Shown here in pieces: positions 31,514 through 32,000 of a stretch of DNA of 32,000 nt (its first letter is position 1; every line of letters begins with the position of its first letter). A model generated the notes under the pieces. It saw only the letters and a program-made list of their open reading frames with translations. It made no database searches and was not told the DNA's origin. The translations under genes were made by a program, and so were the position numbers. Origin of the DNA: Gemmata obscuriglobus (GTDB lineage Bacteria > Planctomycetota > Planctomycetia > Gemmatales > Gemmataceae); NCBI RefSeq assembly GCF_008065095.1, contig NZ_CP042911.1, positions 6,000,001-6,032,000 on the forward strand, given 5' to 3'.

Positions 31514-32000
31514 TTACGCCGCGGCCCGCTCGGCCTTCTGGCCGGTCAACGACTCGAACCGCTGGACGATGACGTCGCAATACCGCGGGTCCAGCTCGAG
31601 CAGGGCCGCGTTCCGCCCGGTCTGCTCGGCGGCGGCCAGGGCGGTGCCGGAGCCGGCGAACGGGTCGAGGACGAGGCCGCCGGGCGGGCACGAGTTGTTC
31701 AGCAGGTACGCGAACAGTTCGGCCGGCTTGGGTGTCGGGTGGTCCGGGTTCTTGGCGGGCTTGTCGAACTCGAGCACGGTGGTCTGGGACCGGTCGCCGA
31801 GCCAGGTGTGGGCGGCCCCGTCGATCCAACCGTAGAGACAGTTGTGCACGACGATGCCGTCCGCCACGTAATGCTTGTCCCGCTCGACGTCCATCGACCA
31901 CACCTCGAGGTCGTGCACCCGCTCGAAGCTGGTGGCCGTCAGGTCGCGCCACTCGAACCGCTCGCCGGCGGTGGGCACCGGCACCTGCATCACGCCCGGG
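31514..32000 (-). CDS. N6/N4 DNA methyltransferase (N6_N4_Mtase, phage ParB-methylase type) interrupted by an intein; 5' part lies outside the window
   Basis: The reading frame is open to the window edge. C-extein: CLYGWIDGAAHTWLGDRSQTTVLEFDKPAKNPDHPTPKPAELFAYLL..LVLDPFAGSGTALAAAEQTGR. This gives an HPTxKP catalytic motif followed by the FxGxG AdoMet motif. Confidence 0.85.
   Translation of the reverse strand, partial: PGVMQVPVPTAGERFEWRDLTATSFERVHDLEVWSMDVERDKHYVADGIVVHNCLYGWIDGAAHTWLGDRSQTTVLEFDKPAKNPDHPTPKPAELFAYLLNNSCPPGGLVLDPFAGSGTALAAAEQTGRNAALLELDPRYCDVIVQRFESLTGQKAERAAA
31841..32000 (-). other. C-terminal portion of an intein (blocks F and G) inside the methyltransferase gene
   Basis: ..SFERVHDLEVWSMDVERDKHYVADGIVVHN followed by Cys+1 (codon 31838-31840). 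Compare the canonical mini-intein end ..VFDLTV...HNFVANDIIVHN/S,C. Confidence 0.75.

What the first reader, a model, noticed from the sequence alone, without database searches (positions are those of the whole stretch)
31514..32000. Intein inside a phage-type DNA methyltransferase
The sequence ..ERVHDLEVWSMDVERDKHYVADGIVVHN|CLYGW.. has the hallmark intein blocks F and G. It ends in His-Asn (Asn codon 31841-31843) followed by a Cys +1 nucleophile. The extein resumes in the conserved LYGW...HPTPKP...DPFAGSG core of N6_N4 methylases.

Inteins concentrate in replication and repair proteins, so one in a DNA methylase next to a BREX locus is notable. Splicing could gate the activity of a potentially anti-restriction methylase. 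The N-terminal part lies outside the window.
Basis: partly seen in the sequence, partly recalled or inferred. Interest (0 to 1): 0.7.

Follow-up and report, generated by a model that had tools for sequence, protein, structure and literature searches.

The report
Intein in a ParB-fused DNA methyltransferase
The window ends inside a real self-splicing protein element (an intein) that interrupts a phage-type DNA methyltransferase gene of Gemmata obscuriglobus; inteins in such methylases are already published, but this one carries an unclassified, possibly GIY-YIG-like nuclease domain.

Summary
On the minus strand, 31514..>32000 encodes the last 53 residues of an intein (...VWSMDVERDKHYVADGIVVHN). 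Cys+1 and the C-terminal third of an N6_N4 DNA methyltransferase follow.

I recovered the rest of the gene from the source genome, Gemmata obscuriglobus UQM 2246, which is 100% identical over the overlap. The gene encodes 681 aa: ParB_N plus MTase, split by a 287-aa class-1 intein with Cys1, TPEH, HN and Cys+1.

The Gemmata algarum orthologue has 92% identical exteins and lacks exactly these 861 nt. Its sequence reads ...WKHEP|VLYGW.

The same intein sits at the same site in ParB-methylases of other Planctomycetota, a Rhodospirillaceae MAG and Streptococcus suis prophages. It also sits in UvrD-type helicases, including the annotated SPO1 gp34.33 intein.

A mini-intein relative marks out a ~145-aa middle domain. 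This domain has no Pfam, PHROG or PDB match, yet occurs in about 1,400 protein clusters. Motifs, predicted topology, hhalign (P 2e-4) and weak BFVD fold hits point to a divergent GIY-YIG-like homing nuclease. That assignment is not proven.

Inteins in phage N6_N4 methylases were published in 2016 and 2023, so this is a new member of a known kind. Nothing supports regulated splicing or a functional link to the neighbouring BREX locus.

The parts
31514..31840 (-). C-extein of the ParB_N/N6_N4 DNA methyltransferase. It runs from Cys+1 (31838-31840) to the stop codon (31514-31516), 108 residues.
   Evidence: Translation. PF01555 at 1e-17. 95% identical to the intein-free Gemmata algarum orthologue L002.
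31841..32000 (-). C-terminal 53 residues of the 287-aa intein. It is cut by the window edge; the full intein is L081 8771-9631 in the source genome.
   Evidence: TIGR01443 hit.
31862..31909 (-). Intein block F (LEVWSMDVERDKHYVA).
   Evidence: Covered by the TIGR01443 match, residues 30-54. Conserved in all relatives.
31838..31861 (-). Intein block G plus the +1 residue (DGIVVHN|C). His is at 31844-31846, Asn at 31841-31843 and Cys+1 at 31838-31840.
   Evidence: H, N and C are invariant in alignment A4.
31724..31741 (-). Conserved HPTPKP segment of the methyltransferase C-extein.
   Evidence: Aligned to DHPTQKP of solved N6_N4 methylases.
31643..31666 (-). AdoMet-binding motif I (DPFAGSGT).
31169..31471 (-). 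Conserved 100-aa hypothetical gene immediately downstream of the methylase. It served as the anchor that identified the source genome and shows synteny with G. algarum.

Best explanation
The window ends inside a 681-aa gene of Gemmata obscuriglobus. The gene encodes an N-terminal ParB_N domain and a beta-class N6_N4 DNA methyltransferase. A 287-aa class-1 intein interrupts the methyltransferase between ...YHWKHEP and CLYGW....

The insertion point lies between catalytic motif IV (DPPY, residue 191) and AdoMet motif I (FAGSG, residue 634).

Inferred splicing mechanism: after translation the HINT domain performs the standard four steps.
1. N-S acyl shift at Cys287.
2. Trans-thioesterification to Cys574 (+1).
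3. Cyclisation of Asn573, assisted by His572.
4. S-N shift.
The products would be a 394-aa ParB-methyltransferase and a free intein.

The intein carries a ~145-aa inserted domain between block B and block F. I interpret this domain as its homing endonuclease, most likely a very divergent GIY-YIG-like nuclease core followed by a small helical, possibly DNA-binding, module. On this reading it cuts intein-less alleles at the HEP|C(L/F/W)YGW-coding site, and the intein is then copied in by repair.

What is shown: the gene structure, the clean presence/absence polymorphism, the splicing residues, the HINT fold (predicted on a relative), and the wide but sporadic distribution at one site.

What is inferred: that splicing occurs, that the precursor is inactive, and that the middle domain is a nuclease.
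For: Source and full gene:
- L081 (GCA_000171775.1, ABGO01000001.1) is identical to the window over 601 nt.
- The 681-aa ORF is shown.
- ParB_N and N6_N4_Mtase are both hit in Pfam.

Clean insertion:
- The G. algarum orthologue L002 is 395 aa and syntenic. Its exteins are 92% identical in protein and 91% in DNA. It lacks exactly the 861 nt.
- Other intein-free homologues read HEP|CLYGW.

Splicing residues: Cys1, TPEH, HN and Cys+1 are present. TIGR01443 is above its cutoff.

HINT fold: the AF2 model of the 46%-identical P0125 intein has pLDDT 80-92 in the splicing part. It matches the NpuDnaB and SspDnaB inteins, a Clostridium BIL domain and hedgehog Hint, with TM (target-normalised) 0.74-0.82.

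Same intein at the same site:
- Planctomycetota: L001, L033 and L047.
- Rhodospirillaceae: L068.
- Metagenome proteins P0121-P0127.
- S. suis prophages, 38% identity over 287 aa, E 5e-54.
- Only 4 of the 80 related genomic loci carry it.

Same intein family in UvrD helicases, including the annotated SPO1 gp34.33 intein.

Middle domain:
- It is absent from the mini-intein P0128.
- 1,403 clusters match at E<=1e-3, and the domain is always embedded in a larger protein.
- Y15, R24, R41, E66 and six other positions (M17, G26, W51, L118, P128) are invariant and E45 nearly invariant. All are intact in G. obscuriglobus.
- The predicted topology is beta-beta-alpha-beta-alpha.
- hhalign against GIY-YIG sequences gives Prob 44-48%, P 2e-4, score 27. 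Reversed and shuffled controls score at most 16.5.
- After three same-family hits, BFVD Foldseek hits are dominated by GIY-YIG/Seg/intron endonucleases, with E from 4e-3 to 0.3.
Against: - No splicing or cleavage experiment exists.
- The N-terminal splicing region is not recognised by TIGR01445, and PF14890 scores below its threshold on this protein.
- The HINT fold was predicted for a relative, not for this protein.
- For the middle domain there is no Pfam, PHROG or PDB-sequence hit.
- Foldseek against solved structures finds nothing, GIY-YIG enzymes included (best E 1.7).
- The second GIY-YIG tyrosine is an invariant arginine.
- The BFVD hits have low TM-scores, about 0.3.
They were, however, confirmed as PF01541 members.
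- The closest intein-free allele has Val, not a nucleophile, at +1.
Confidence: 0.85

Rival explanations
1. The intein is real, but its middle domain is not a nuclease. It would be a DNA-binding or structural linker domain, or a decayed remnant. The element would then either no longer home or rely on an endonuclease supplied in trans.
For: - There is no match to any nuclease family in Pfam, PHROGs, PDB sequences or PDB folds.
- A weak HTH_33 hit falls on the helical half.
- Relatives show decay: a frameshift in L001, a 16-aa deletion in P0121 and the mini-intein P0128.
Against: - Charged and aromatic residues (Y, R, R, E, E) are invariant across about 1,400 clusters from distant phyla and two host proteins. 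That is more than a linker needs.
- They map one-to-one onto the GIY-YIG catalytic positions and secondary-structure elements.
- BFVD hits are enriched in GIY-YIG endonucleases.
- The sporadic distribution at one site fits active homing.
Confidence: 0.3
2. The intein is splicing-dead. The gene would then be a disrupted, non-functional methyltransferase.
For: - The N-terminal splicing profile models do not reach threshold.
- Some relatives are frameshifted or truncated.
- The methylase sits in a mobile-element-like module that could be decaying.
Against: - The 681-codon frame is intact and identical in several independent G. obscuriglobus assemblies.
- Every catalytic position is canonical: Cys1, TxxH, block F Asp/His, HN and Cys+1.
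- The extein motifs DPPY and FAGSG are intact.
Confidence: 0.1
3. Splicing would be conditional, for example redox-controlled through Cys1/Cys+1, and would switch on an anti-restriction methylase in step with the adjacent BREX system.
For: - The insertion separates catalytic motif IV from AdoMet motif I, so the precursor is plausibly inactive.
- Both nucleophiles are cysteines.
- The gene lies about 2.5 kb from a type 2 BREX operon.
Against: - Nothing in the sequence distinguishes it from an ordinary selfish intein.
- The same intein at the same site occurs in S. suis prophages and in other genomes. Their neighbourhoods were not screened for BREX.
- The G. algarum orthologue works without the intein.
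- BREX has its own methylase, PglX.
Confidence: 0.05
4. It is not an intein at all. It would be a native insertion domain of the methylase or a bacterial intein-like (BIL) domain.
For: The BIL2 and Clostridium BIL domains are among the top fold matches.
Against: - A 92%-identical orthologue lacks precisely this segment.
- The insertion lies in a conserved motif, ends in His-Asn and is followed by Cys. These are features of inteins, not of BILs.
- The fold hits include many true inteins.
- A family member is annotated as an intein in phage SPO1.
Confidence: 0.02

Closest known systems
Inteins of actinobacteriophage N6_N4 DNA methylases (DNMT-1/DNMT-2 of Kelley et al. 2016, PMC5050341; Gosselin et al. 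2023, PMC9957025)
   Same: A class-1 intein is inserted in a conserved region of a phage-type PF01555 methylase. It is sporadically distributed among homologues and is presumed to home.
   Different: - Those inteins are about 327 aa and carry a LAGLIDADG endonuclease.
- No actinophage appears among the 69 phage records that match this intein by tblastn, so they are unrelated or very distant intein alleles.
- Whether the insertion site is the same was not tested.
- The host here is a planctomycete chromosome.
ParB-like/adenine methyltransferase of Streptococcus suis prophage phiD12 (phiD12_0047, AGF87641.1) and its Javan/phi-Ssu relatives
   Same: - Same architecture: ParB_N + N6_N4 MTase + intein.
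- Same insertion site: QHEP|CQPAGT...THN|CLYGWK.
- Same middle domain.
- The intein is 38% identical over its full length and the exteins are 39% identical.
   Different: - The host is Firmicutes and the genome is AT-rich.
- The records annotate it only as a methylase or ParB nuclease, not as intein-containing.
Intein of Bacillus phage SPO1 gp34.33 UvrD-type DNA helicase (annotated mat_peptide 'intein', 275 aa)
   Same: - Same intein family. It starts CQPAGEQV and ends VTHN.
- It carries the same middle domain and is about 30% identical over all 287 aa, E 2e-28.
   Different: - The host protein and site differ: helicase VGDDDQ|...|SMYSFRGA, with Ser at +1.
- The C-extein flanks of the two hosts share a (C/S)-[ILV]-Y-[GS]-[WF] pattern.
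GIY-YIG homing endonucleases (I-TevI, Seg proteins) and the UvrC N-terminal domain (PF01541)
   Same: - Predicted beta-beta-alpha-beta-alpha core.
- VYLM ~ GVYL, RVG ~ YVG, an Arg on helix 1 and EA..E on helix 2.
- hhalign P 2e-4.
- BFVD fold hits are enriched for this family.
   Different: - The Pfam model is not hit.
- No match to solved GIY-YIG structures.
- The second Tyr is replaced by Arg.
- The domain is embedded in-frame in an intein. Dassa et al. 2009 (PMC2677866) state that this arrangement is not known for GIY-YIG.
Mini-intein at the same methylase site (P0128)
   Same: The same HINT domain and the same insertion site: HEW|CQPAGT...THN|CFYGWK.
   Different: It is 137 aa and lacks the middle domain. 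It therefore defines the boundaries of that domain.

Membership tests
Intein (class 1, HINT superfamily) | An in-frame insertion in a conserved host-protein site that is absent from close orthologues | tested here: met
   The G. algarum orthologue (92% identical exteins) lacks exactly 861 nt. Its junction reads HEP|VLYGW. Other homologues read HEP|CLYGW.
Intein (class 1, HINT superfamily) | A Cys/Ser nucleophile at intein position 1 and block B TxxH | tested here: met
   Cys287 (CQPAGT) and TPEH at 363-366 in the full gene from the source genome. Both lie outside the window.
Intein (class 1, HINT superfamily) | Blocks F and G ending in His-Asn, followed by Cys/Ser/Thr at +1 | tested here: met
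   ...DGIVVHN|C within the window. TIGR01443 scores 24.9 bits against a cutoff of 15.6. H, N and C are invariant in the family.
Intein (class 1, HINT superfamily) | HINT fold of the splicing domain | tested here: met
   The AF2 model of relative P0125 (46% identical) matches solved inteins and Hint domains, with TM (target-normalised) 0.74-0.82. The G. obscuriglobus protein itself could not be submitted.
Intein (class 1, HINT superfamily) | Protein-splicing activity | not testable with these tools
   This needs expression and mass analysis.
N6_N4 DNA methyltransferase (PF01555, beta class) | Profile match above threshold, with motif IV (DPPY) preceding motif I (FxGxG) | tested here: met
   PF01555 scores 82 bits on the full protein. 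DPPY is at residue 191 and FAGSG at 634. Solved relatives match at down to 6e-14.
ParB_N-fused phage-type methyltransferase | An N-terminal ParB_N domain (PF02195) | tested here: met
   26.7 bits against a cutoff of 26.3, which is marginal. The same fusion is seen in G. algarum, in the S. suis phages and in L033/L047/L068.
LAGLIDADG or HNH intein endonuclease | A match to the LAGLIDADG or HNH profiles within the intein | tested here: not met
   No such Pfam or NCBIfam hit on the intein or on 32 family members, even at E<=10.
GIY-YIG nuclease (PF01541) | A sequence-profile match to the family | tested here: not met
   PF01541 is never hit. No GIY-YIG chain appears in the PDB hmmsearch.
GIY-YIG nuclease (PF01541) | Profile-profile similarity and catalytic residues (Tyr, Tyr, Arg, Glu) on a beta-beta-alpha-beta-alpha core | tested here: inconclusive
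   hhalign gives Prob 44-48%, P 2e-4, score 27, against at most 16.5 in 34 controls. The first Tyr, the Arg and the Glu are present, but the second Tyr is Arg. The topology fits.
GIY-YIG nuclease (PF01541) | Structural similarity to known members | tested here: inconclusive
   No hit among solved structures. In BFVD, about 18 of the named hits ranked 5-50 are GIY-YIG, Seg or intron endonucleases, but at E from 4e-3 to 0.3 and TM about 0.3.
Split intein / fractured gene | Intein halves encoded on separate genes | tested here: not met
   There is a single uninterrupted 681-codon ORF. The short 'M-start' relatives P0048, P0068 and P0082 begin inside the middle domain, so they are truncated gene calls.
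BREX type 2 (as a possible functional partner) | The methylase is a component of the BREX operon | tested here: not met
   The BREX genes PglW, PglX, PglY, PglZ, BrxD and BrxHI are complete without it and lie on the opposite strand. The methylase travels with a DUF3987/PolA module, also in G. algarum.

The most novel reading that the evidence does not exclude
The ~145-aa middle domain defines a large, undescribed family of intein-embedded homing endonucleases derived from the GIY-YIG fold. About 1,400 clusters at 50% identity carry it, in ParB-methyltransferases and UvrD-type helicases of phages and bacteria from several phyla. This would be the first in-frame GIY-YIG-type endonuclease in inteins, and one intein lineage would have jumped between two host genes whose C-extein flanks share a (C/S)-[ILV]-Y-[GS]-[WF] motif.
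Probability: 0.4. Interest if true: 0.65.

Novelty: new member of a known kind. Interest (0 to 1): 0.45.

Why it matters
For the genome, a gene named 'YhdJ-like methyltransferase' or 'hypothetical protein' in G. obscuriglobus records actually encodes two proteins. The same holds for the S. suis prophage methylases.

For intein biology, the interest lies less in the host gene, since phage N6_N4 methylase inteins are already documented. It lies more in the endonuclease module.

- This widespread intein lineage has a conserved inserted domain that no library recognises.
- It may be a GIY-YIG derivative, a nuclease type that the papers I could search (Dassa 2009; the 2025 actinophage survey) do not list among intein endonucleases.
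- If confirmed, it would add a homing-endonuclease scaffold with a defined natural target, the HEP|CLYGW-coding site.
- It would also give a documented case of an intein switching between methylase and helicase hosts.

Tried and rejected
- Split-intein idea. Several hits (P0048, P0068, P0070, P0082) start with Met about 100 aa before HN|C. The alignment shows they begin inside the middle domain, so they are truncated gene calls or fragments. The G. obscuriglobus ORF is continuous.
- The search for related loci in genome contigs did not return the source genome. The source was found instead through the exact-sequence look-up of the neighbouring 100-aa ORF.
- The search for homologous proteins with the intein returned only 10 proteins and missed the source protein. 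The exhaustive HMMER search and tblastn against phages showed the true breadth.
The relative P0125 was modelled instead.
- Pfam, PHROGs, NCBIfam and PDB sequence searches for the middle domain gave only chance-level hits.
- Foldseek of the middle domain against the PDB found nothing.
- hhalign against single I-TevI or UvrC sequences was uninformative, with Prob about 1% or less.
- An antisense or out-of-frame endonuclease, as described for some actinophage inteins, was considered. The only long antisense ORF in the AT-rich phiD12 intein translates to low-complexity junk. Its weak similarity to G. obscuriglobus only mirrors conservation of the sense strand.
- Literature searches for an intein in G. 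obscuriglobus, or for GIY-YIG domains inside inteins, found nothing relevant. From memory, InBase listed a 'Gob Hyp' intein from this strain. I could not check whether it is this one.

Full report
**1. The observation**

The feature lies on the minus strand. Translating window 31514-31999 (minus) gives one open frame that runs off the window edge. It reads ...ERVHDLEVWSMDVERDKHYVADGIVVHN|CLYGWIDGAAHTWLGDRSQTTVLEFDKPAKNPDHPTPKPAELFAYLLNNSCPPGGLVLDPFAGSGT...AERAAA*.

The NCBIfam model for the intein C-terminal splicing region (TIGR01443) scores 24.9 bits against a curated cutoff of 15.6. The downstream part matches PF01555 N6_N4_Mtase (1e-17) and solved N6/N4 methyltransferases (down to 6e-14).

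**2. Recovering the rest of the gene**

An exact-sequence look-up of the neighbouring 100-aa ORF (31169-31471, minus) found the source. It is Gemmata obscuriglobus UQM 2246, GCA_000171775.1, contig ABGO01000001.1 (locus L081). L081 is identical to the window over all 601 compared bases.

The complete gene (L081 7913-9958) encodes 681 aa. Its parts are:
- a ParB_N domain at residues 7-82 (PF02195, just above threshold);
- the N-terminal half of the methyltransferase, with DPPY at residue 191;
- ...YHWKHEP, followed by a 287-aa insert that begins CQPAGTQVAKV..., contains TPEH (block B) and ends ...GIVVHN;
- CLYGW... and the AdoMet motif FAGSG at residue 634.

Only the last 53 intein residues are inside the window.

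Database records name the protein 'DNA adenine methyltransferase YhdJ', 'DNA methyltransferase' or 'hypothetical protein'. None of these names mentions the intein.

**3. Is it a clean insertion?**

Yes. Gemmata algarum JC673 (L002) has the syntenic orthologue, flanked by the same DUF3987/PolA gene upstream and the same 100-aa ORF downstream. It is 395 aa, with exteins 92% identical in protein and 91% in DNA. It lacks exactly the 861 nt. Its junction is ...AAGCACGAACCT|GTTTTATACGG..., that is HEP|VLYGW.

More distant intein-free homologues read HEP|CLYGW, so the +1 Cys is native to the host motif.

The intein interpretation survived both.

**4. Fold**

The G. obscuriglobus protein could not be submitted for structure prediction. 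I modelled the intein of P0125 instead. It is 46% identical, at the same site and complete.

The splicing part is predicted with pLDDT 80-92. Foldseek places it among solved inteins and Hint domains: NpuDnaB TM 0.74, SspDnaB 0.75, a Clostridium BIL 0.82 and hedgehog 0.81.

**5. Distribution**

The same intein, at the same methylase site, occurs in several places:
- a Gemmata MAG, where it is frameshifted near its end (L001);
- Phycisphaeraceae (L033) and Planctomycetales (L047) MAGs;
- a Rhodospirillaceae MAG (L068);
- several metagenome proteins.

Only 4 of the 80 related genomic loci carry it.

tblastn against phage genomes found it in 15 Streptococcus suis prophages. In phiD12_0047 the junctions are QHEP|CQPAGT...THN|CLYGWK, with 38% identity over 287 aa, E 5e-54.

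The same intein family also sits in UvrD-type helicases of SPO1-like, phi92-like and Vibrio phages. GenBank annotates the SPO1 gp34.33 copy as an intein. Its junctions are VGDDDQ|CQPAGEQV...VTHN|SMYSFRGA.

A sporadic distribution at one conserved site across distant hosts is the usual signature of a homing intein.

**6. The middle domain**

P0128 carries a 137-aa mini-intein at the same site. Comparing it with the full-length inteins delimits a ~145-aa insert between block B and block F.

This insert has no significant match in Pfam, NCBIfam, PHROGs or PDB sequences. That holds for the single sequence and for profiles.

An exhaustive HMMER search of 1.84 billion representatives found 1,403 proteins at E<=1e-3 and 744 at E<=1e-10. 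The domain is always embedded in larger proteins. The sampled hosts are ParB-methylases and, mostly, UvrD/SF1 helicases. Some of these carry two such inteins.

The family-invariant residues are Y15, M17, R24, G26, R41, W51, E66, L118 and P128. E45 and A62 are nearly invariant. All are intact in G. obscuriglobus.

AlphaFold2 on the domain alone gives pLDDT 78.9. It predicts beta-beta-alpha-beta-alpha followed by two helices.

The motif layout recalled GIY-YIG nucleases: VYLM..G..WRVG ... R-L ... EA..EQ...YG.P. I tested this idea in three ways.
- Foldseek against solved structures found nothing (best E 1.7).
- hhalign of the family alignment against eight GIY-YIG domains was suggestive. The comparison gives Prob 44-48%, P about 2e-4 and score 27. 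It aligns VYLM with GVYL, RVG with YVG, and EA..E with EAL.LE. Four reversed-profile controls scored at most 12.5 and 30 column-shuffled controls at most 16.5.
- Foldseek against predicted viral structures (BFVD) first returns three proteins of the same family. Below these comes a list dominated by GIY-YIG, Seg-like and intron endonucleases. These hits have E from 4e-3 to 0.3 and low TM-scores.

Taken together, a divergent GIY-YIG-like nuclease is the best available reading, at roughly 50%. It is not established. A defining feature, the family profile match, was tested and not met, so I do not file the domain as a GIY-YIG member.

An antisense or out-of-frame endonuclease, as described for some actinophage inteins, was looked for and not found.

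**7. Mechanism (inferred)**

Translation gives a precursor in which catalytic motif IV and AdoMet motif I are separated by 287 residues. Canonical class-1 splicing would release a 394-aa ParB-methyltransferase and the free intein. The residues involved are Cys287, the block B His, His572-Asn573 and Cys574.

The intein's nuclease-like domain would then cut intein-less alleles, and the element would be copied in by repair.

The methylase belongs to a module with a DUF3987/primase-PolA gene, a HARE-HTH gene and small ORFs. The module is also present in G. algarum, and the methylase is present in eight copies in Limnoglobus roseus. This suggests a mobile element whose methylase protects its own DNA. 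That function is inferred from what is known about phage ParB-methylases and was not tested.

**8. Relation to BREX and to the 'gating' idea**

The window does hold a type 2 BREX/Pgl system on the plus strand: PglW, PglX, PglY, PglZ, BrxD and BrxHI. A Septu PtuAB pair is nested between PglX and PglY.

The methylase is on the other strand and in a different module. The same intein sits in methylases of S. suis prophages, whose neighbourhoods I did not screen for BREX. Nothing supports conditional splicing or a functional coupling, so I rate that idea at about 5%.

**9. Comparison with the literature**

Inteins in N6_N4 methylases of mycobacteriophages were tabulated in 2016 (PMC5050341, Table 1: DNMT-1 and DNMT-2). 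They were analysed in detail in 2023 (PMC9957025) and again in a 2025 survey (bioRxiv 10.1101/2025.01.02.630785). Those inteins carry LAGLIDADG endonucleases, and they do not appear among the tblastn hits of this intein.

An intein in a phage-type methylase is therefore a known kind. This one is a new, unannotated member belonging to a different intein lineage.

Dassa et al. 2009 (PMC2677866) state that GIY-YIG and Vsr-like endonucleases are not known inside inteins. The 2025 survey lists LAGLIDADG, HNH, antisense Vsr-like and out-of-frame EndoVII-like endonucleases, but no GIY-YIG. My searches found no paper describing a GIY-YIG domain inside an intein. The library does not cover all journals.

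**10. Verdict**

It is a real and probably active intein. It is ordinary in kind and was overstated as unusual.

The noteworthy residue is the unclassified, widespread, possibly GIY-YIG-derived endonuclease domain, together with the lineage's presence in two different host genes.

Interest is 0.45. Novelty is 'new member of a known kind'. The most novel reading not excluded is a new GIY-YIG-type intein endonuclease family, at about 40%.

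Noticed in passing
window 16895-19254 (+), within 8616-29068: A Septu pair is nested inside a type 2 BREX/Pgl operon. PtuA matches PDLC00301 at 3e-141 and PtuB matches PDLC00318 at 1.5e-70. The order is PglW 8616-12803, PglX 12864-17075, PtuA, PtuB, PglY 19277-22978, PglZ about 22975-25659, BrxD 25656-26969 and BrxHI 26966-29068.
   Followed up: partly
L009, L010, L012, L024, L026, L027, L031, L032 (Limnoglobus roseus PX52 chromosome): Intein-free homologues of this methyltransferase occur at eight separate places in one 9.4-Mb genome. 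This suggests a multi-copy mobile element that carries the ParB-MTase, possibly with the primase-PolA gene.
   Followed up: no
L086 2234-3058 (SPO1 gp34.33) and P0137, P0145, P0147, P0151, P0153 and others: The same intein lineage (CQPAG... start, same middle domain) invades UvrD-type helicases at VGDDDQ|...|S/C-I-Y-S-F/W-RGA. 24 of 153 representative proteins carry two copies of the domain, which implies two inteins. The C-extein flanks of the helicase and methylase sites share a (C/S)-[ILV]-Y-[GS]-[WF] motif, a possible route for host switching.
   Followed up: partly
P0157 (metagenome protein, about residue 700): The sequence ...YVVDGIITHN|CHPPGTQVLT... looks like one intein ending directly at Cys1 of a second intein. 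That would be tandem or nested inteins.
   Followed up: no
L001 3940-4071; P0126; P0121: Close relatives of the intein show decay. The Gemmata MAG has a frameshift near the intein's C-terminus, P0126 is a truncated copy, and P0121 has a 16-aa deletion in the helical part of the middle domain. This fits the homing cycle, though assembly errors could also explain it.
   Followed up: partly
L081 2721-7085 (upstream of the methylase in the source genome, outside the window): A 1,454-aa protein combines DUF3987 (primase/helicase-like) with DNA_pol_A_exo1 and DNA_pol_A. It is conserved next to the methylase in G. algarum, where it is 1,731 aa. It may be the replication module of a self-replicating mobile element.
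   Followed up: no
window 29000-31170: Between BrxHI and the methylase module lie several small minus-strand ORFs of 104-156 aa, one with a faint HTH_23 hit. They have no assigned function and are conserved in order in G. algarum.
   Followed up: no
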